Assembly: GCA_030748735.1 (NCBI GenBank)
Contig: JASMLK010000144.1
Location: forward strand, 47,383 to 111,382
DNA: 64,000 nucleotides
Direction: 5' to 3'
Source of the DNA: Myxococcota bacterium
GTDB taxonomy: Bacteria; Myxococcota_A; UBA9160; UBA4427
The notes under the pieces are model-generated. The model was not told the origin of the DNA, did no database searches, and was given only the letters and a program-made list of their open reading frames with translations. A program made the translations under genes and the position numbers. Of this stretch, positions 9,303 to 27,850 are shown piece after piece; position 1 is the first letter of the stretch, and each line of letters starts with the position of its first letter.

Positions 9303-11138
<1,836 letters not shown>

Positions 11139-18563: not shown

Positions 18564-18739
18564 GCGACGCGCGAACCGCGCTGTGCGCGTGTGGGGTCAT
18601 GTCATGACGTGGTCATGCGCAGCTCGCATGCAACTCGCTGCAGGCGCGAAGTTGCGCATCGATGGTGGGCGCTGAATTCCGGCGTTCCTGCATCTCACAG
18701 TCCATCAAGGTGCGCTTTCGGAGGACCGATAGGCCGTGG

Positions 18740-20032
18740 GTGCGAATCGTCCTTACCCACAAATTCGTCCTCGGCTCGCTGTTGGTTGCGGCGTCGGCTG
18801 CAGTGTTGCCGGGGGGCATCCGGGCCCTTGGCTTCGACTTCCCCGAGTGGGGCTCGGTGTTCGTTGCACTCTGTGTCGGAGGCTGTCTCGGGTTTGCGAT
18901 CTCGCGCAGCCTCGGCCAGCGCTTCGAAGATCTTCGCGATGCAACCGAACGCATTCGCAGCGGTGACCTCACGGTCGAGTTGTCTCGCACGAAGCCGAGT
19001 TTCGTGGTCGACGAAACCGACGACCTCGCCTTGAGTGTGCGCGGCATGCTCGAACGTTTGAACGCTTTCGTGGGTGGAGTGCAGGAAAGCGCCAACGCCG
19101 TAAACGGTGCGGCCCAGGACCTGGCGCGTGAAATCGGGCGCGTACGCGAAGGCAACGAAGGCATCTCTTCCACCGTTGCGCGCGCGGCCGAAGGCAACTC
19201 GCGGCAACGCCATCTCTTCCAGCGCACCAACGCGATCATCGGAGAGATCTCTTCCGAAGTCGAACTCAACGCCGGACGGGCACGCGAGGCCTTTGGCTTC
19301 GCCACGGAAGCAAATCAGAAGGCCAGCAGCGGCGTCGAAGTCTCACAGCTCGCGATCGACAAGATGCGCATGGTGTTCGAGCGCGTCGAACAGACCGGCG
19401 CCATGGTGTTCGACCTCGAAGCGAAGACGAGCCACGTGCATCAGATCACCGAGATCATCACCAGCGTCGCCCATCGCACGAACCTGCTTTCCCTCAATGC
19501 GTCGATCGAAGCCGCGCGCGCGGGCGAAGCCGGGCGCGGCTTTTCGGTGGTGGCCGACGAGATTCGCAAGCTTTCCGAAAGTGCCGGCAAGAGTGCCGAC
19601 GAGATCTCGAAGCTCGTTCACGAGATCCAGTCCGACACGCGCGAAGTCGCGAACGAGATGCGCAAGAGCAGCGAAGTGATCAGTGAAGGCCGCGAGGACG
19701 TGAACACGATCGCGGATTCACTCGGCGAGATCAGCATGGCAGTTGGTGAAGCGGCCGCACGTTCGGAAGAGATCTTCCACGGCGCCGACAACCACGCGAT
19801 GAGTGCCGAGCGCATGGTGACGTCGATGAGCGAACTCAAGTCGAGCGCCGAAGACAACGACGCTGCGCAGGAAGAGATTTCCCGCATGGCTTCGGGCCAG
19901 CTGCAGGCAGTGTCGAAGATCGTCGAGGGTTCGCAAGAACTGCTGACGGTGGCCGAAGCACTGCGCGAGCACCTGAGCTTCTACCGCACCGCGCAGTCGG
20001 AACCGGCGGAAGAGACGGGAGACTCGGCGTGA
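18740..20032 (+). CDS. Methyl-accepting chemotaxis protein, DifA-like (two adjacent TM helices, no periplasmic sensor, HAMP, signalling domain)
   Basis: [32 protein letters not shown] hairpin signature; only a few residues separate the two hydrophobic segments. Confidence 0.93.
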
Positions 20033-20529
20033 GCGCCCCCGTTTCGAGCCCTCCGACCAGCCAGCGTCTGATGATCTTCGAGGTGGCGGGCCACCCCTTT
20101 GCGCTGCCCATTTCGGAGGTCCTCGAAGTGGTGGAACAAAGTGGTGTTCGCTGCATACCCACTCTTTCGAAGAGTACAGGCGGTGTCATGAACTGGCACG
20201 GGGAAGCCCTGCCCGTGATCGCGTCGCATCTGCTGCTCGGCGGAGACGCGATGCCCGAACGCGGTGCCGACGAAGTGCAGCCGTTCCTCGTCGTGAGCGA
20301 CCGACCCGACGGAGGTCGACAGCTTGGCTTGCCGATCGATCACGTGTGCGGGCTCGTCAATGGCGAGCGCGGACGCCCCGCAGGCAACGAAGTCGTGGTC
20401 GAGCGTCGCACCCTCGACGGCCGCGTCGTGAGCCTCGTGAACCCCCAGCGCCTCGTCGCGCAGGCCGAAGAAGTCATCGAACGAAATTCGTCCCGCTACC
20501 CGTCGGGTGCCGGGCAAGCCACACCTTAA
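20029..20529 (+). CDS. cheW: CheW-like coupling protein (DifC-like)
   Basis: [13 protein letters not shown]...[21 protein letters not shown]; overlaps the MCP stop. Confidence 0.85.
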
Positions 20530-20648: not shown

Positions 20649-21029
20649 ATGAAAGCTCGAGTACTGATTGCAGATGATGCGTCCTTCATGCGCCAGATGA
20701 TCCGCGAGATCATCGAGCCCGAAGGCTACGAAGTCGTGGGTGAGGCGACCAACGGCATCGAGGCCGTGGACCAGTTTCTCGAACTGCGTCCCGACCTGGT
20801 GACGATGGACATCGTGATGCCGAAGCGCTCCGGCATCGACGCGGTGAAGGGCATCCTCGCCGAAGACCCGCAGGCCCGCGTCGTGATGTGCAGCGCGCTG
20901 GGGCAGGAGACCCTCGTGACCGAAGCGATCCAGGCCGGTGCGAAGGACTTCATCGTGAAGCCGTTCAAGCCCGACGCCGTGATCGCGACGCTCGGCAGGG
21001 TCCTCGACAAGAGCGACGACGAGGCGTAA
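20649..21029 (+). CDS. cheY: CheY-like response regulator (DifD-like)
   Basis: VLIADD, LVTMDIVMP, SALGQ, FIVKPF; GGAG RBS. Confidence 0.93.
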   Translation: MKARVLIADDASFMRQMIREIIEPEGYEVVGEATNGIEAVDQFLELRPDLVTMDIVMPKRSGIDAVKGILAEDPQARVVMCSALGQETLVTEAIQAGAKDFIVKPFKPDAVIATLGRVLDKSDDEA

Positions 21030-21032
21030 GAC

Positions 21033-21545
21033 GTGGCGCTCGACATGGGTAGATTCAGGGCGCTCTTCCTCGAAGAGGCCGCCGAGCAGCTCGCGGAGAT
21101 CAGCCGCGCCTTGCTCGAGCTCGAAAAGGACACGGCTTCGGTCGAGTCCATCGACACGATCTTTCGTATGGCGCATTCGATCAAATCGATGGCGGCGTCC
21201 GTGGGATACGACTCGGTCGAGCAGGTTGCCCATGCCCTCGAAGACCGCATGGAGGGGATTCGTGCGAGCGGCTGCGTGCCGCCCGGCGATTCGCTCTCGG
21301 TCTTGTTCCGCGGACTCGACGGCCTCGAACAGATGGTCGAAGTCGTCCGCGAAACCGACGAGCCGCCGCCGCCGCGTCCGGAACTCGTCGAGCAGCTGTC
21401 TGCGCCCGACGAGGCATCGGCTGAACCCGCTGCGCTCTCGGCGGAACCGGAACCGCCCGACGCCGCGGAGCTGGACGTCGCGCTCGTCGCGGTGATGAAC
21501 GCCCTCGAGGCGGAGTCCGGAGCAAAAAAAAAACTCTTGAACTGA
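21033..21545 (+). CDS. cheA: CheA P1 (Hpt) domain ORF; N-terminal part of a split or frameshifted cheA
   Basis: LFLEEA...IFRMAHSIKSMAA (phospho-His)...AHALED, then a Pro/Glu/Ala linker ending GAKKKLLN*. Confidence 0.88.
   Translation: MALDMGRFRALFLEEAAEQLAEISRALLELEKDTASVESIDTIFRMAHSIKSMAASVGYDSVEQVAHALEDRMEGIRASGCVPPGDSLSVLFRGLDGLEQMVEVVRETDEPPPPRPELVEQLSAPDEASAEPAALSAEPEPPDAAELDVALVAVMNALEAESGAKKKLLN
21524..21533 (+). other. A10 homopolymer at the cheA frame junction (candidate -1 frameshift or transcriptional slippage site)
   Basis: gc-AAAAAAAAAA-ctcttgaactga; zero frame stops at 21543-21545, while the -1 frame is open from the tract into the kinase ORF. Confidence 0.7.
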
Positions 21546-21568
21546 CTCCGGTCGTCGCGCGCGACGAA

Positions 21569-22792
21569 GTGCACGACCCCGCTGCGGCAGAAGACACCGC
21601 AGCCGCGGCATCGCGGGAAGGCAGCGCGCTCCCGCGCATGCCGGCACCGGCCCCGACGGTACGCGTGCGCACCCAGTCCCTCGATCGCTTTCTCGGCACC
21701 GTGGGAGAGGTGATCCTGAGCGCGCGGCAGCTGCGCCGTGTGACGGTCAAGGGTGAGGATTCCGCCGAACAGGCGGAGCAGTTCGACCAGGTCGAGCGCT
21801 GCGTCAACGAGCTGCAGCGCCGGGTGCTCGACCTGCGCACCGCACCGCTCACGCGCGCGATGGAGAACCTGCCCCGAGTCGCGCGCCAGGTGGCGGAATC
21901 CCTGGGCAAGCGCGTCGACGTGCAGCTACTCGGGACCGAACTCGAACTCGATCGTTCGACCCTCGACCGACTCAACGAACCGCTGCTCCACATCATCCGC
22001 AACGCGGTCAGTCACGGCCTCGAGTCGGTCGAAGACCGCATTCGCTCGGGCAAGACCGAAGTCGGTCAGGTGGTGATCGAGGCGCGGCGGGAAAAGAATT
22101 CGATCGTCATCGAAGTGAATGACGATGGGCGCGGGATCGACCTCGACGCCGTGCGCGATCGCGCGGTTTCGGCCGGCCTCATCCACGAGGGACTTGCCGA
22201 AGATCTTCCCGCCGAAGAGATCGTGAGCCTGATCTTTCGACCGGGTCTGTCGACCGCCAAACAGGTTTCGGAAGTGTCGGGTCGTGGCGTAGGCATGGAC
22301 GCCGTAAAGGCGACGATCGAGTCACTCGGTGGCTCGATCGATCTCAGCACGACCGCAGGGCAGGGGACCACGACGCGTTTCGAAGTACCGATCACTGCGG
22401 CGGTTCAGCGGGTGGTGCTCGTAGAGATGGCCGGCGAGTGCGTGGCGCTGCCGATCACCAAGGTCGAGCGCATTTTCGAAATCGACTCACATTTACTGGA
22501 AGAAAGCGGCGGCGAAGCGTTCGCAACGATCGGCGGCGATCCGATTCCTGTGCTCGATCTCGCACGTTGTCTCGCTCTCGAACCGATAAGAAACGAGGGT
22601 CCGATCTCGCTTGCGCTCACCGATGTCCGCGGCGAGATCGTGGCGTTGCGTGTCGACCGCTTCGTCAGTCAACAGGAGGTGTACGTCAAGCCGGTTCCCA
22701 AGCTGCTTGCGAGCTTGAAGACACTCGCAGGCATGACGACCCTCGACGATGGAAGTCCTGTCTTTCTCCTCGACCTCAAGCACCTGGTTTGA
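21569..22792 (+). CDS. cheA: CheA P3-P4-P5 (dimerisation, ATPase, CheW-like) part, DifE-like; in the -1 frame relative to the Hpt ORF
   Basis: TVRVRTQSLDRFL..VGE, PLLHIIRNAVSHGLE (N box), DDGRGID (G1), IFRPGLST, SGRGVGMD (G2), C-terminal CheW domain. Confidence 0.92.
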   Translation: MHDPAAAEDTAAAASREGSALPRMPAPAPTVRVRTQSLDRFLGTVGEVILSARQLRRVTVKGEDSAEQAEQFDQVERCVNELQRRVLDLRTAPLTRAMENLPRVARQVAESLGKRVDVQLLGTELELDRSTLDRLNEPLLHIIRNAVSHGLESVEDRIRSGKTEVGQVVIEARREKNSIVIEVNDDGRGIDLDAVRDRAVSAGLIHEGLAEDLPAEEIVSLIFRPGLSTAKQVSEVSGRGVGMDAVKATIESLGGSIDLSTTAGQGTTTRFEVPITAAVQRVVLVEMAGECVALPITKVERIFEIDSHLLEESGGEAFATIGGDPIPVLDLARCLALEPIRNEGPISLALTDVRGEIVALRVDRFVSQQEVYVKPVPKLLASLKTLAGMTTLDDGSPVFLLDLKHLV

Positions 22793-22821: not shown

Positions 22822-23415
22822 ATGTTGAGCGCACAGGAAGCACGGATCGATCGACTGAGCGAACTCGCGAACATTGGCGCGGGTCACGCTGCCGGTGCGT
22901 TCTCGCAGATGACCGGTCATACGATCCGCATGGAAGTGCCGCGGGTCTGGTTGTCCGGCCTGGAGCTTGGTTCCGACGGTGCGGCGGTCAGTGTGGAAGA
23001 CGCCGACGAGCGTGAATGGGCGTCGGGCGTCATCTTCGAATTCGATGGCTGTCTCAACGCCGTCATGGCGGTGCTCTTCCGGCGAGAGATGTGCGACGCC
23101 GTCGTGCGGCAGATGGTCGGCCAGGAGCAGGGCTTCCTGCCGTCCGAAACCGTCGAATCTGCACTGATGGAAGTGGGCAATGTGCTGGCGTCCCACGTCG
23201 CGTCTGCGATCGCCGACACCCTCCATGCCCGCCTGCTGCCCTCGATCCCCATGCTCTCGCTCGACGCCGCGTTCGAGCAGTTGCAGGCCCTCGCGGCGAC
23301 GCGTCCGGGCGAGGGCGAGGTCTGGATCGAATGCGAGCTGGCCGACCAGGACGGGCAGCTCGGGGGCCTCGTGGTGCTGATACCGGATCGCGAAGCCGAG
23401 GCCGCCACCGACTGA
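22822..23415 (+). CDS. cheC: CheC-family phosphatase (DifG-like)
   Basis: Two ExxN motifs: DRLSELANIGAGHAA and SALMEVGNVLAS. Confidence 0.88.
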   Translation: MLSAQEARIDRLSELANIGAGHAAGAFSQMTGHTIRMEVPRVWLSGLELGSDGAAVSVEDADEREWASGVIFEFDGCLNAVMAVLFRREMCDAVVRQMVGQEQGFLPSETVESALMEVGNVLASHVASAIADTLHARLLPSIPMLSLDAAFEQLQALAATRPGEGEVWIECELADQDGQLGGLVVLIPDREAEAATD

Positions 23416-23488
23416 AGCGCCCATCGAAGTTTGATACCGTGCCCTGCCTTCACGACTCTCTCTTGGGTTGTGGCGAACGAAGGCTCCG

Positions 23489-24238
23489 GTGGATCGCGAC
23501 GAACTTCGAAAACTCCTTGAAGGCCTGCAACGCGGCGACGTCGAGCTCGACGCCGCGGTGAAGCGCCTTTCCCACTTTCCTTTCGTCGACACGGAGCACG
23601 CGAGGGTCGACACCCAGCGCTCGCTTCGGATCGGGATCCCCGAAGTGATCTTCGGCCTCGGCAAGACGCCCGAACAGATCGTCGACGTTGCGAAGACCTT
23701 GCGTGAAGCCGGGCAGAACGTTCTCGTCACGAGACTCGAAGCCGAAGTCGCGGCTCGCGTGCAGGGTGAACTCCCGGAAAGCGAATACGACGAAGTTGCG
23801 CGCCTGCTGTGGATCGGACCGATGGAAGTGCCCGTCGTGGGCAAGGGCACGGTTGCGGTCGTTTCGGCGGGTACGAGTGATCGTCCCGTCGCGGCCGAAG
23901 CGGCCGCCGTGGCCCGTTGTTTCGGCAACGAGGTCGAGACCCTCGCCGACGTCGGCGTGGCGGGTATTCACCGGCTGCTGGCATCGCACGACGTGCTCGC
24001 GAACGCCCGGGTCTTGATCGTGGTCGCGGGAATGGAGGGAGCGTTGCCTTCGGTGGTTGGTGGGCTGGTAGACAAGCCCGTCATCGCCGTGCCGACGAGC
24101 GTGGGTTATGGCGCAGCCCTCGGTGGCATTGCGGCGTTGCTCGGCATGCTCACGAGTTGTTCGTCGAATGTCTCCGTCGTGAACATCGACAACGGTTATG
24201 GGGCCGCCTATGTCGCGACGCTCATCAACCGCCTCTAG
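23489..24238 (+). CDS. larB: Nickel-pincer cofactor biosynthesis protein LarB (AIR-carboxylase-like)
   Basis: PEVIFGLGKT, SAGTSD, DVGVAGIHRL, AGMEGALPSVV, AVPTSVGYG, VNIDNGYGA. Confidence 0.93.
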   Translation: MDRDELRKLLEGLQRGDVELDAAVKRLSHFPFVDTEHARVDTQRSLRIGIPEVIFGLGKTPEQIVDVAKTLREAGQNVLVTRLEAEVAARVQGELPESEYDEVARLLWIGPMEVPVVGKGTVAVVSAGTSDRPVAAEAAAVARCFGNEVETLADVGVAGIHRLLASHDVLANARVLIVVAGMEGALPSVVGGLVDKPVIAVPTSVGYGAALGGIAALLGMLTSCSSNVSVVNIDNGYGAAYVATLINRL

Positions 24239-25565
24239 CGCTACGCGCAAGCGTCGATCGGGTGGCACGCCTTCGGGCGGTCGCATCCTTCATCTCGATT
24301 GCTTTTCGGGGATCGCGGGCAACATGATGCTCGCCGCGTTGCTCGACCTGGGTCTTTCGCGCAAGGAACTCGACGCCGGGCTGGCGGGCCTGGGCGTGGA
24401 TTACAAGCTCCGCGTTTGCAAGGTGACCCGCGGTACGCTGGCGGCGAAGTACCTGGATGTTCTGGTGCCGGGTGTTCGTGCGAAGGCGAAGAAGAAAAAG
24501 AAGGCGAAGAAGTCTGCGCACAGCCACGGCCATGCGCATGCCCAGCATCATCATTCGCACGCCGAACCCCACGTTCATCCACACGGTCACCAGCACGGCG
24601 AGGGGCGTTCGTACGCGAAGATCCGTCGGCAGCTCGAAAAGGCAGACCTGGCCAGCGGTGTGCGTGCGCGGGCACTCGACTGCTTCGAAGCGCTGGCGGT
24701 CGCCGAGGGCAAGGTACATGGCGTCGGTTTCGAGGACGTCCACTTTCACGAAGTCGGCGCCGTGGACGCCATCGTCGATATCACCGGCATGGCGATCGGG
24801 CTCGAAGCTCTCGGTATCGACCGCGTGACTGCATCTCCGGTGGCGCTGGGGCAGGGCACCGTCCACACCGAACACGGACTGTTGCCGCTACCAGCCCCGG
24901 CAACCATCGAACTCCTGCGCGGCGTTCCGACGACCCCCGCCCATGTCGAATGGGAAACCGTGACGCCGACCGGCGCAGCGATCCTGCGAAGCCAGGTCGA
25001 CGCATACGGCGCGATGCCCGCCATGACGATCGATCGCACCGGTTTGGGGGCAGGGGACGACCGGCCCGGCCCCATGCCAAACGTGCTTCGCGCCGTGCTG
25101 GGTGAAACCTCTTCGCTGGAAGGCGATCGCATCGTGTGTCTCGAGTGCAACCTCGACGACTTCAACCCCGAACACTTCGACTACCTGATGGAGCGCTTGT
25201 TCGAAGCCGGCGCACTCGACGTTTCGCTCCAGAACGTACAGATGAAGAAGAACCGCCCGGGCTTTCTCGTCCGGGTGGTCGCAACCCCCGCGAGCCGCCT
25301 CGCTCTCACACGATGCCTGCTCACCGAATCGACGACCCTCGGTGTGCGGGCTTCGGATTGGGACCGCCTCGTCGTTCCTCGCGAATCGCGAAAGATCGCC
25401 ACGCCTTACGGACGCATCGGCGTGAAGTTCGTGACCGGGCCCGACGGGCGCACGGAGGTGTCGGCGGAATACGACGACTGCAAACGCGCGGCGCGCAAGC
25501 ACGAGGCGCCGCTGCGCGATGTCGTTCGCGCCGCCGAAGACGCTGCGCGCAAGGTGGCGCGGTGA
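24210..25565 (+). CDS. larC: Nickel insertion protein LarC (start uncertain)
   Basis: LDCFSGIAGNM, His-rich segment, VHFHEVGAVDAIVDI, TPTGAA, ECNLDD, MKKNRPG, EYDDC. Confidence 0.92.
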   Translation: MSRRSSTASSATRKRRSGGTPSGGRILHLDCFSGIAGNMMLAALLDLGLSRKELDAGLAGLGVDYKLRVCKVTRGTLAAKYLDVLVPGVRAKAKKKKKAKKSAHSHGHAHAQHHHSHAEPHVHPHGHQHGEGRSYAKIRRQLEKADLASGVRARALDCFEALAVAEGKVHGVGFEDVHFHEVGAVDAIVDITGMAIGLEALGIDRVTASPVALGQGTVHTEHGLLPLPAPATIELLRGVPTTPAHVEWETVTPTGAAILRSQVDAYGAMPAMTIDRTGLGAGDDRPGPMPNVLRAVLGETSSLEGDRIVCLECNLDDFNPEHFDYLMERLFEAGALDVSLQNVQMKKNRPGFLVRVVATPASRLALTRCLLTESTTLGVRASDWDRLVVPRESRKIATPYGRIGVKFVTGPDGRTEVSAEYDDCKRAARKHEAPLRDVVRAAEDAARKVAR

Positions 25566-26374: not shown

Positions 26375-27850
26375 TCAGCCCAGGTGGTGGAGATACTCGA
26401 TCAGTCCGGCTTCGTCGGACGCGGTCATCGACTGGAACTGCAGGCCGAACCCGCGATGCCCCGAGCCCGGGACCTGATATAGCACCTCGGCGTCGAACTC
26501 GAGGTGCCGACCCATCGCCGGGATGTTGAGGTCGCAGCGTTTGACCGCGCCCTGTGCAAAGTGTTCGCCACTGCGCACCATGATGCCGCCGCGGCCGAGC
26601 AGGACGGCCGTCGAGGGCAGGTGGGCGCCGTCGATCTGGACCGACAGCTGCTGGGGATAGCGGGTGAAGCGGCGGCGCTTGGGCTGCTTGATCGTGCGTT
26701 CGAGATGTCGAGCAATCTTGGACACGTCGATCGGATAGCCGAGATAACCGATGGCCCCGGCCTGCTGTGCGGCCTTGCGGCGCGATGCACGGCGGTGGGC
26801 GTCGACCAGGATCACGGGGATCTCTTCGATCCCCACGACGCTGCGCAGAGCGGGGATCAACTCGATGCCTTCCGAGCGCCCGAGGCTCACGTCGGCCATT
26901 ACGAGTTCGGGCGAAATTCGATCGTAGTAGTCGATGGCTTCGTTGAGGGTATGGGCGACCAGCACTTCGTAGTTGCGAAGCCGCAGCGAGTCGATCGCGC
27001 TGCGTTCACGTGCGAGCTGCTCGCCGACCAGCAGGATGCGTAGCGGGCGCTCCTTCGGTTCGTCCGAAAGGTCGACGATGGTTGCCGACATCGACATGGC
27101 ACGTCGTCGCTCTTCTTCTTTGATTCGGCGGTCCATGTTCGTGAGCTCTTGCAGGCGATTGGTGATCTGGATCTCGAGATCGACGGCCGAGTCGACCTCT
27201 GCATCGATCTCGATCACGCGATCTTCGGGGCGCTGAAGCGTCACGCCACCGAGTGGCCCACGGCTGGGGAGGATCACCTTGCGGGGCTCGCAAACCTGTA
27301 CCTTGACGGCGCGATCTTCTCCCGCGAGAAGAACGCTCAACATCGCACCGTTGTTCGCGGCGTTGACATCGGCACCGAGTTTTCGGAGCCAGGCCTCGGC
27401 GTTTCGCAACTGGGTGAGGTGAGCGTTCCACGCCGCGCGAATCCGGGCTTCGAGGGACGCGGCGTTCTTGCAGTCGCCGATGGGGATCAGTGGAAGAACG
27501 AAGAGCGCGGCCGGGCGTAGGCACTTGATCTGTTCGCGACCGGCGGTCGAGAAGACGATCTCCGACAGCGCGAGTGATCCGTTCAGAGTTTCGATTGAGC
27601 GCCCGGTGCCGTGCATCGAAGCCAGCACGCTGCGCCCGCCCGGCAGCAGACGTGCGCGAACACCCATCGTCTGTAGACGATGGAGCATTCGACTCTGGTC
27701 CGATTCCCCACCTGCTTCCCGCACCTGCGACCGAAGCCTCCGCGATTCTCGACAGCTTTGCTGATCGGCAGGATGGAAGCGTTCCTTGAAGTTGCCCGTT
27801 GCTGATGCGGAATTGCGTGTCTGCTGCTGTTCAGCCTGCTCTGAGAGCAT
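26375..27850 (-). CDS. Unknown N-terminal domain + degenerate receiver domain + PilZ-like domain (start uncertain)
   Basis: RILLVGE...PELVMADVSL...IPVILV...GAIGYLGYP, then RRRFTRY (RxxxR) and GFGLQF. Confidence 0.75.
   Translation of the reverse strand: MLSEQAEQQQTRNSASATGNFKERFHPADQQSCRESRRLRSQVREAGGESDQSRMLHRLQTMGVRARLLPGGRSVLASMHGTGRSIETLNGSLALSEIVFSTAGREQIKCLRPAALFVLPLIPIGDCKNAASLEARIRAAWNAHLTQLRNAEAWLRKLGADVNAANNGAMLSVLLAGEDRAVKVQVCEPRKVILPSRGPLGGVTLQRPEDRVIEIDAEVDSAVDLEIQITNRLQELTNMDRRIKEEERRRAMSMSATIVDLSDEPKERPLRILLVGEQLARERSAIDSLRLRNYEVLVAHTLNEAIDYYDRISPELVMADVSLGRSEGIELIPALRSVVGIEEIPVILVDAHRRASRRKAAQQAGAIGYLGYPIDVSKIARHLERTIKQPKRRRFTRYPQQLSVQIDGAHLPSTAVLLGRGGIMVRSGEHFAQGAVKRCDLNIPAMGRHLEFDAEVLYQVPGSGHRGFGLQFQSMTASDEAGLIEYLHHLG

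What the first reader, a model, noticed from the sequence alone, without database searches (positions are those of the whole stretch)
21500..21571. cheA is split at an A10 tract in the Hpt-kinase linker: candidate programmed -1 frameshift or slippage giving a free Hpt plus full-length CheA
Seen: the Hpt ORF reads GCA AAA AAA AAA CTC TTG AAC TGA. The -1 frame (AAA AAA AAA ACT CTT GAA CTG ACT CCG...) is open from the tract into the intact P3-P4-P5 kinase, giving a fusion of about 586 aa. This is the longest A run I found in the window, three AAA codons in a row are unusual here because Lys is mostly AAG, and the break sits at a domain boundary with both halves otherwise undamaged. An SD-like GGAG (21512-21515) lies 8-11 nt before the A_AAA_AAA heptamers, and a 7-bp inverted repeat (cggagtc / gactccg) brackets the tract. 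Established: dnaX uses SD-stimulated -1 frameshifting in E. coli and A-run transcriptional slippage in Thermus to make a short and a long product; Rhodobacter sphaeroides uses a bipartite CheA3/CheA4. Inference: recoding sets a ratio of free Hpt (phosphate sink or shuttle) to full kinase, or the tract phase-varies a Dif-like pathway, or the kinase half is made separately from GTG 21569 or ATG 21638. I know of no described recoded CheA. A one-base homopolymer error remains possible.
Basis: partly seen in the sequence, partly recalled or inferred. Interest (0 to 1): 0.85.

Follow-up and report, generated by a model that had tools for sequence, protein, structure and literature searches.

The report
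Conserved recoding site inside a cheA gene
A chemotaxis kinase gene in a group of uncultured marine Myxococcota is always interrupted at a short run of A's that forces a reading-frame slip, so one gene probably makes both a free phosphotransfer domain and the full kinase, which has not been described for any CheA.

Summary
A10 lies at window 21524-21533. The Hpt ORF (21033-21545) stops 10 nt after it, and the P3-P4-P5 kinase follows in the -1 frame. It is the longest A/T run in the 5.08 Mb genome.

It is not an assembly error. I examined 188 orthologous loci from the same class:
- 11 are cut by contig ends.
- 27 are fused.
- 150 are split.

Of the 150 split loci, 146 (55 genera, 10 families) have the kinase in the -1 frame. 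All 146 have an A7-A11 run holding an in-phase A_AAA_AAA heptamer and an open -1 frame.

The codons right after the run are conserved in the -1 frame (S-P-E/D-L), upstream of the 0-frame stop. In the 141 canonical (-1-frame) split loci of the earlier set, 81 have no ATG/GTG/TTG between run and P3. A few relatives carry one extra A and are fused in frame.

Best reading: programmed -1 recoding gives a free Hpt protein plus full-length CheA of a Dif-like operon. The level is unresolved: ribosomal frameshift, RNA-polymerase slippage, or both. No RNA or protein data exist. I found no recoded cheA in print.

The parts
18662..20032 (+). MCP (HAMP + MCPsignal), first gene of the chemosensory operon
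   Evidence: Pfam
20029..20529 (+). CheW
   Evidence: Pfam
20649..21029 (+). CheY-like response regulator
   Evidence: Pfam
21033..21545 (+). Zero-frame ORF: Hpt (P1) domain plus linker, 170 aa, ending KKKLLN-stop. This is the predicted short product.
21512..21515 (+). SD-like GGAG, starting 12 nt before the first A of the tract. This is the modal position of SD-like 4-mers in the orthologues.
21524..21533 (+). A10 slippery tract holding two in-phase A_AAA_AAA heptamers (21524-21530 and 21527-21533)
21543..21545 (+). Zero-frame stop TGA, 3 codons after the tract
21533..22792 (+). -1 frame continuation: linker (TLELTPVV...) then P3 dimerisation, P4 HATPase_c and P5 CheW-like domains. With the upstream part it gives a 586-aa full-length CheA.
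22822..23415 (+). CheC-like phosphatase gene (197 aa)
   Evidence: Pfam CheC/CheX
23468..24238 (+). AIRC-domain (LarB-like) gene. It is syntenic with the Myxococcaceae locus L070.

Best explanation
The cheA gene of this Dif-like operon (MCP-CheW-CheY-CheA-CheC) is expressed by programmed -1 recoding at the A tract.

Standard decoding ends three codons after the tract and yields a free 170-aa Hpt (P1) protein. In a fraction of events the reading shifts by -1 within A_AAA_AAA. This could be tRNA-Lys(UUU) re-pairing on the ribosome, insertion of one extra A by RNA polymerase, or both. Translation then continues through a short Ala/Pro/Glu-rich linker into P3-P4-P5 and yields a 586-aa CheA.

Shown:
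- the anatomy of the site;
- its conservation across a class;
- -1-frame coding constraint starting at the tract;
- lack of any start codon for the kinase part in most orthologues.

Inferred:
- that both products are made;
- that the slip sets the ratio of free Hpt to kinase;
- that free Hpt is phosphorylated in trans.

My split on the level of the slip is about 55% mainly ribosomal and 45% mainly transcriptional. The longer tracts (A9-A11, as in this window) are the more likely to involve polymerase slippage.
For: 1. Census (loci). Of 188 orthologous loci, 11 are truncated, 27 fused and 150 split. Of the split loci, 146 have the kinase in the -1 frame. Their tracts are A7 (70), A8 (16), A9 (24), A10 (35) and A11 (1). 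Every one holds at least one in-phase A_AAA_AAA heptamer and an open -1 frame from tract to kinase. They cover 55 genera and 10 families.

2. The first codons after the tract are conserved in the -1 frame: S in 41, P in 29 and E/D in 35 of 55 genera. The variable positions are +5 and +11, which are the third positions of -1 codons (information content 0.03 and 0.19). Positions +3, +6 and +12 are conserved. This stretch lies upstream of the 0-frame stop.

3. In the 141-locus set, 81 loci have no ATG/GTG/TTG between tract and P3. In 106 of 141 there is none between the nearest upstream -1-frame stop and the tract.

4. The tract-to-kinase linker shows the same codon-position composition in the kinase frame as the upstream linker does in the Hpt frame.

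5. Relatives with one more A are fused in frame and read the same peptide. L021 has A8 and reads RKKSPELE. Four species of genus g55 have an in-frame A10, while their congener L231 is A9 and split.

6. In seven close genomes the junction is an island of conservation: 0.71 of columns are invariant, against 0-0.14 in the flanking linker.

7. Of 62 non-orthologous CheA loci, 39 have the Hpt motif in the same open frame as the kinase. In the other 23 the simple motif did not match, but the kinase frame is 514-967 aa long.

8. Signals that favour a ribosomal shift:
- SD-like 4-mers start at -12, -11 and -10 from the tract (33, 38 and 34 occurrences, against 1-11 at each other position). They occur in 74 of 146 loci against a 23% background, and in 21 of 55 genera.
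- Downstream folding z-score is -0.98 with 20% below -2, against -0.38, 0.02 and -0.59 with 0-7% below -2 in controls (71 of 141 loci).
- The genome has both tRNA-Lys(CUU) and tRNA-Lys(UUU).
- An IS3-family element in the same genome carries the same heptamer at its orfA/orfB overlap.

9. Signals that favour polymerase slippage:
- 60 of 146 tracts are A9-A11.
- A run of 9 A or T slips efficiently in vivo, and Thermus dnaX uses such slippage (passages read in PMC5009743).
Against: - There is no RNA, ribosome-profiling or protein evidence. No run on record as RNA holds the stretch.
- Four split loci have the kinase in the +1 frame: genus g50 (3 species) and L224. A -1 ribosomal shift cannot serve these. 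Two of the three g50 loci have an ATG in the kinase frame 5-6 codons before the tract, so separate initiation may occur there.
- The SD-like motif is missing in 34 of 55 genera.
- No conserved downstream structure was found in the window's own genus: consensus -4.6 kcal/mol with a covariation term of about 0. The local hairpin starts 17 nt after the tract, far for a frameshift stimulator.
- 27 of 177 complete loci are fused, so the split is dispensable. The free Hpt may be a tolerated by-product.
- Counts come from related genomes and are not independent.
Confidence: 0.87

Rival explanations
1. RNA-polymerase slippage alone is the mechanism. The polymerase adds or drops A's on the tract, standard translation of the edited mRNAs gives full-length CheA, and the ribosome plays no special part.
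For: The window's tract is A10, and 60 of 146 tracts are A9-A11. That is longer than a heptamer needs. Runs of 9 slip efficiently in bacteria (PMC5009743 passages). The four loci with the kinase in the +1 frame keep the tract in the same phase relative to the kinase frame. They could be served by loss of one A or gain of two. Fused relatives keep long in-frame tracts. No upstream element would be required.
Against: 86 of 146 tracts are only A7-A8, and every A7 coincides exactly with the in-phase heptamer. SD-like motifs peak at a dnaX-like distance upstream. Structure downstream is modestly enriched, while upstream it is not (z -0.23), so there is no sign of a nascent-RNA hairpin.
Confidence: 0.35
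2. The tract is a DNA-level contingency locus (phase variation). Replication slippage switches the gene between split (off) and fused (on) within populations.
For: Long homopolymers are mutable. In-frame tract variants exist in L021 and in four g55 species. A tree needs at least 13 fused/split changes.
Against: Tract length is fixed within genera despite 14-31% protein divergence. Examples are 6 of 6 A10 in the window's genus, and a clade of 11 with 10 A9 and one A10. Split loci outnumber in-frame-with-tract loci 150 to 5. A7 tracts are poor switches. A search of 5.8 billion protein clusters for longer (fused) proteins found none above 68% identity to this Hpt, so no fused allele of the near kin is on record (this is a word-based search, so it is weak evidence). 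The Logan contigs show A10 only (contigs drop rare variants).
Confidence: 0.04
3. CheA is truly split into two genes. Hpt and the kinase core are translated independently (internal start or reinitiation), and the A tract is incidental.
For: Split CheA systems exist (Rhodobacter CheA3/CheA4; recalled). The window has GTG 21569 and ATG 21638. Two g50 loci have an ATG just before the tract.
Against: 81 of 141 loci have no ATG/GTG/TTG between tract and P3, including all of L002-L007. The -1-frame codons directly after the tract, upstream of the Hpt stop, are conserved at protein level. Only 17 of 141 loci have any start with an SD-like motif. The idea does not explain an A-rich tract kept in phase in a 65% G+C genome.
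Confidence: 0.06
4. The break is a sequencing or assembly error, or a decaying pseudogene.
For: The genome is a 160-contig assembly, and homopolymers are error-prone.
Against: The same frame relation appears in 146 independent assemblies with four or more tract lengths. Both halves are intact with full Pfam domains. Logan's separate assembly gives A10.
Confidence: 0.02

Closest known systems
dnaX tau/gamma (E. coli -1 frameshift at A_AAA_AAG with upstream SD and downstream stem-loop; Thermus thermophilus polymerase slippage at a run of 9)
   Same: Both use an A-rich slippery tract and give two products that share an N-terminus. An SD-like motif lies about 10-12 nt upstream in part of the loci. 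Either mechanism is used on similar tracts. The review also mentions dnaX candidates in which the long product needs the shift and the zero-frame stop follows the site (PMC5009743 passages). That is the topology seen here.
   Different: The gene family is different. In the classical cases the long form is the zero-frame product. No conserved stem-loop was found here. The heptamer ends in A, not G.
IS3/IS1-family transposase OrfA / OrfAB
   Same: The zero frame gives a short N-terminal protein, and a -1 shift at A_AAA_AAA/G fuses it to the catalytic part. 72% of heptamers in these IS families are A_AAA_AAG or A_AAA_AAA (PMC4066793 passage). An IS3-family copy in this same genome (contig C131; HTH_Tnp_1 + rve) has the same heptamer at its overlap.
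   Different: This is a chromosomal signalling gene, vertically inherited across a class, and not a mobile element.
E. coli copA / CopA(Z)
   Same: One gene gives an isolated N-terminal domain and the full multidomain protein through -1 frameshifting (PMC5009743 passage).
   Different: In copA the shift truncates the protein. Here the shift extends it.
Other ways of making partial CheA: E. coli CheA-L/CheA-S (alternative start) and Rhodobacter sphaeroides CheA3/CheA4 (separate genes)
   Same: The P1 and kinase functions can reside on different polypeptides, with phosphotransfer in trans. This is recalled knowledge; no call tested it.
   Different: Those systems use internal initiation or gene duplication, not recoding. 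Here the short form is P1 alone.
Myxococcaceae Dif-like locus (L070, CP120527.1)
   Same: The gene order is the same: CheW, CheY, CheA, CheC-like, AIRC-domain gene. The name 'Dif' is recalled, not tested.
   Different: There CheA is one 824-aa frame with a P2 domain and no A tract.
E. coli cheA as a predicted +1 frameshift hotspot (FSscan)
   Same: It is the only paper found that links cheA and frameshifting (PMC2790909 passages).
   Different: It concerns a 16-nt cassette tested in a reporter, a +1 shift, inside an uninterrupted gene. There is no conserved split.

Membership tests
Programmed -1 ribosomal frameshift site | X_XXY_YYZ heptamer in phase with the zero frame | tested here: met
   A_AAA_AAA is in phase in the window (two copies) and in 146 of 146 loci with the kinase in the -1 frame.
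Programmed -1 ribosomal frameshift site | Overlapping -1 ORF that is open from the site and encodes a functional extension | tested here: met
   The -1 frame is open in 146 of 146 loci. P3-P4-P5 domains are present. -1-frame codon conservation starts at the tract.
Programmed -1 ribosomal frameshift site | Phylogenetic conservation of site and frame relation | tested here: met
   55 genera, 10 families and two orders of one class.
Programmed -1 ribosomal frameshift site | Stimulatory element (upstream SD-like or downstream structure at 5-9 nt) | tested here: inconclusive
   An SD-like peak lies at -12 to -10, in 21 of 55 genera only. Downstream z is -0.98 against -0.38 to 0.02 in controls. No conserved structure in the window's genus.
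Programmed -1 ribosomal frameshift site | Trans-frame protein demonstrated | not testable with these tools
   No proteomic or ribosome-profiling data are available.
Productive transcriptional slippage site | Homopolymer of about 9 or more A/T | tested here: met
   The window has A10. Across orthologues 60 of 146 have A9-A11 and 86 of 146 have only A7-A8.
Productive transcriptional slippage site | mRNA population heterogeneous in tract length | not testable with these tools
   No RNA run holds the stretch. Only DNA contigs were available.
CheA histidine kinase | Hpt, dimerisation, HATPase_c and CheW-like domains in order | tested here: met
   Pfam hits lie above curated cut-offs on the two frames. 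No P2 domain is present.
Phase-variable contingency locus | Tract length differs among close relatives, and on and off forms co-occur | tested here: not met
   Tract length is constant within genera. There are 5 in-frame-with-tract loci against 150 split. No near-identical fused protein is on record.
Split CheA (separate genes) | Own start codon and ribosome-binding site for the kinase part | tested here: not met
   81 of 141 loci have no start codon, and only 17 of 141 have a start with an SD-like motif.

The most novel reading that the evidence does not exclude
An ancient, class-wide programmed recoding event sits inside a chemosensory histidine kinase. The A tract acts as an evolvable rheostat: A7 to A11, the ribosome and the polymerase both contributing, and occasional fixation of the in-frame form. 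It sets how much diffusible Hpt phosphocarrier is made per kinase. The free Hpt would be a working part of the Dif-like pathway (a shuttle, buffer or sink for phosphoryl groups) and not a by-product.
Probability: 0.35. Interest if true: 0.9.

Novelty: new variant of a known kind. Interest (0 to 1): 0.8.

Why it matters
Few chromosomal, non-mobile bacterial genes are known to rely on programmed frameshifting or polymerase slippage. The examples I know are prfB, dnaX, copA and some type III secretion genes. I found no two-component or chemotaxis gene among them in the main texts I searched.

This case has unusually deep comparative support: about 150 species, with natural variants that differ in tract length, frame relation and fusion state. 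That makes it a ready-made series for separating ribosomal from transcriptional slippage.

For chemotaxis research it predicts a third way, beside alternative starts and gene duplication, to separate P1 from the kinase core. It also offers a testable idea: the free-Hpt to CheA ratio may be a tuned parameter.

For annotation, these genes are currently called as two ORFs or as pseudogenes. A source name for a fused form even reads 'CheW'.

Tried and rejected
- Sequencing runs: no RNA holder is listed.
- Read laying: only Logan DNA contigs were available. X1 and X2 may be the source sample, and perhaps one data set filed twice. They carry A10 unchanged. X3 and X5 contigs end at 21463 and 21451, before the tract, so they say nothing about it.
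- Downstream hairpin in the window (from +17): RNAalifold on 7 close relatives gave -4.6 kcal/mol and no covariation. Per-sequence folds show hairpins at variable distances. I therefore do not claim a stimulatory structure.
- Upstream hairpin for polymerase slippage: z is -0.23, no signal.
- Internal starts are not conserved.
- The tree (FastTree, 167 loci plus 8 outgroups) shows at least 13 fused/split changes. It cannot tell gain from loss. In the second order the basal branches are fused, so a single origin with repeated loss is an inference, not a result.
- The genome-contig scan gave organism titles: MAGs labelled Deltaproteobacteria or Myxococcota, a few labelled Spirochaetales. Its 18 orthologous loci largely repeat assemblies already counted through G handles (contig lengths coincide), so I did not add them to the census. 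Of the 18, 13 are split with a tract, 1 is fused, 3 are truncated and 1 is odd.
- Not fetched: genome G220, which has a match.
- The phylum sample found the orthologue in 65 of 401 genomes, all within the class.
- Literature searches and term look-ups in PMC3711429, PMC5009743 (first 300,000 characters) and PMC4066793 found no recoded cheA. Supplementary tables of these papers list candidate clusters. I could not see them, and they could hold a related entry.
- Structure prediction, complex prediction and the atlas search were not used. I make no claim of binding.
Full report
**What is there.**
The window carries a chemosensory operon:
- MCP (18662-20032)
- CheW (20029-20529)
- CheY (20649-21029)
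- a cheA in two frames
- a CheC-like gene (22822-23415)
- an AIRC-domain gene (23468-24238)

The cheA zero frame (21033-21545) encodes an Hpt domain and a linker that ends ...GAKKKLLN-stop. The -1 frame is open from about 21425. After the tract it encodes a linker, then H-kinase_dim, HATPase_c and a CheW-like domain, up to 22792.

The break is at A10, 21524-21533, read GCA AAA AAA AAA CTC in the zero frame. It therefore holds two in-phase A_AAA_AAA heptamers. It is the only run of 8 or more A in the window and the longest A/T homopolymer in the 5.08 Mb, 65% G+C genome. AAA makes up 10.5% of Lys codons in that genome.

**Not an error: the site is conserved.**
A search of relatives with the kinase part found one orthologue per genome. 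To my surprise, an A or T run lay at the same junction in nearly all of them. I extended this in three steps:
- The whole class has the orthologue in 180 of 225 genomes at E <= 1e-90.
- Its second order has it in 27 of 32 at E <= 1e-80.
- A phylum sample has it in 65 of 401, all inside the class.

I fetched 188 loci and classified them by tblastn with the window's own Hpt and kinase parts:
- 11 are cut by contig ends.
- 27 are fused.
- 150 are split.

Of the split loci, 146 have the kinase in the -1 frame. Their tracts are A7 (70), A8 (16), A9 (24), A10 (35) and A11 (1). Every one holds an in-phase A_AAA_AAA, and every one has the -1 frame open from tract to kinase. They span 55 genera and 10 families.

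Tract length changes between lineages by substitution or by whole codons, so the frame relation is kept. The zero-frame stop follows within 0-6 codons in 105 of 146 loci, most often 3.

As a control, 62 non-orthologous CheA loci from the genome-contig scan show no such break. In 39 the Hpt motif lies in the same open frame as the kinase. In the other 23 the simple motif failed to match, but the kinase frame is 514-967 aa long.

**The -1 frame is read from the tract onward.**
- The four codons after the tract are conserved as S-P-E/D-L(P/A) in the -1 frame.
- At nucleotide level the freely varying positions are +5 and +11. These are third positions of -1 codons but second positions of zero-frame codons. 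This stretch lies before the zero-frame stop, so it cannot be explained by a kinase gene that starts downstream.
- The tract-to-P3 linker has the G-rich first position and C-rich second position of an Ala/Pro/Glu linker in the kinase frame. The upstream linker has the same pattern in the Hpt frame.
- 81 of 141 loci have no ATG, GTG or TTG between tract and P3, including all six nearest relatives.
- 106 of 141 have none between the last upstream -1-frame stop and the tract.
- Natural '+1 A' forms exist. L021 (A8) and four species of genus g55 (A10) are fused in frame and read the same K-K-S/T-x-E peptide. Their congener L231 is A9 and split.
- Among seven close genomes the junction is an island of invariance: 0.71 of columns, against 0-0.14 in the surrounding linker.

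**Which mechanism.**
Both known routes fit the anatomy.

For a ribosomal -1 shift:
- The minimal tract (A7) always coincides with the in-phase heptamer.
- SD-like 4-mers start sharply at -12 to -10 from the tract. This includes the window's GGAG at -12, but they occur in only 21 of 55 genera.
- Downstream windows fold somewhat better than shuffles and than control windows.
- The genome has separate tRNA-Lys(CUU) and tRNA-Lys(UUU). This would favour AAA over AAG in the A site. That point is an inference from the review's discussion of Thermus.
- An IS3-family element in the same genome has the same heptamer at its orfA/orfB overlap.

For polymerase slippage:
- 60 of 146 tracts, including this one, are A9-A11.
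- Four loci have the kinase in the +1 frame while the tract keeps its phase relative to the kinase frame.
- Fused forms keep long tracts.

No conserved stem-loop was found in the window's genus, and no upstream hairpin signal appeared. I cannot decide between the two routes. I lean slightly to a ribosomal shift for the clade as a whole, with polymerase slippage likely to add at A9-A11.

**Rivals.**
- Phase variation is unlikely. Tract length is constant within genera. Split forms outnumber in-frame-with-tract forms 150 to 5. No fused protein above 68% identity to this Hpt is on record among 5.8 billion clusters (a word-based search, so weak evidence).
- Separate genes is contradicted by the missing start codons and by the -1-frame conservation. 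Genus g50 may be an exception, because two of its three loci have an ATG just before the tract.
- Assembly error is excluded by the number of independent assemblies.

**What system it is.**
The titles of related contigs name uncultured Deltaproteobacteria or Myxococcota MAGs. A Myxococcaceae chromosome (L070) has the same gene order: CheW, CheY, CheA, CheC-like, AIRC gene. Its CheA is a single 824-aa frame that also has a P2 domain. From memory this order matches the Myxococcus dif locus; I did not test that name. The window's class has lost P2 and carries the recoding site in the Hpt-P3 linker.

**Evolution.**
On a FastTree of 167 kinase parts with 8 outgroups, at least 13 fused/split changes are needed. 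In the window's order the fused tips are nested among split clades. In the second order the states are mixed, with fused lineages basal. A single origin followed by repeated loss (insertion of one A, then decay of the tract) is my inference. The tree does not prove it.

**Novelty.**
Searches for cheA with frameshift or slippage terms found no recoded cheA. Nor did look-ups in the main texts of the GeneTack study, the 2016 recoding review (first 300,000 characters) and the E. coli heptamer study. The nearest item is a reporter test of a +1 cassette from E. coli cheA. Supplements could not be read.

The mechanism class is known. A recoded chemosensory kinase that yields a free Hpt and the full kinase appears to be new.

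**Limits.**
All evidence is comparative. No RNA or protein data were available. Counts come from related genomes and are not independent. The function of the short product is inferred.

Noticed in passing
L256 (G000 contig C131) 1893-3127: An IS3-family element (HTH_Tnp_1 orfA, rve orfB) whose orfA/orfB overlap carries an in-phase A_AAA_AAA heptamer (CTA AAA AAA GCG). This is the same slippery motif as in cheA, in the same genome.
   Followed up: yes
L167, L181, L265 (genus g50) and L224: Variant loci where the kinase lies in the +1 frame relative to Hpt (GAA AAA AAG GCC TGA in g50). Two of the three g50 loci have an ATG in the kinase frame 5-6 codons before the tract. This may be a lineage moving to truly separate genes, or one relying on loss of one A in the mRNA.
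   Followed up: partly
L214, L227, L229, L235 against L231 (genus g55): Four species have an in-frame A10 and a fused cheA. A fifth has A9 and is split. These are natural on/off neighbours that differ by one A.
   Followed up: partly
G000 contigs C37:11842-11954, C64:1-83, C91:4-113, C90:20836-20870, C94:11031-11089: Clusters of very long C or G homopolymers (up to C31) in the genome, several at contig ends. They may be assembly artefacts or G/C-tract repeats.
   Followed up: no
G000 contig C92:13609-13626: A C9 run directly followed by an A9 run, at a gene boundary by the crude frame test.
   Followed up: no
L259 (G000 contig C96, T7 at C96:19006-19012): A T7 run with coding-like frames that differ by +1 on either side. 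The locus was fetched but not analysed.
   Followed up: no
window 10024-10030: An A7 run inside a coding-like region that continues in the same frame. It looks like an ordinary Lys-Lys.
   Followed up: no
window 23468-25565 and 26375-27850 (-): AIRC-domain (LarB-like) and nickel-insertion (LarC-like) genes lie directly after the che operon. The AIRC gene is syntenic with the Myxococcaceae locus L070. A response-regulator/PilZ protein lies on the opposite strand.
   Followed up: partly
record titles (L036, L038, L043): Some assemblies carrying this Myxococcota-type locus are labelled Spirochaetales or Spirochaetaceae in their record titles. These are probably taxonomic mislabels.
   Followed up: no
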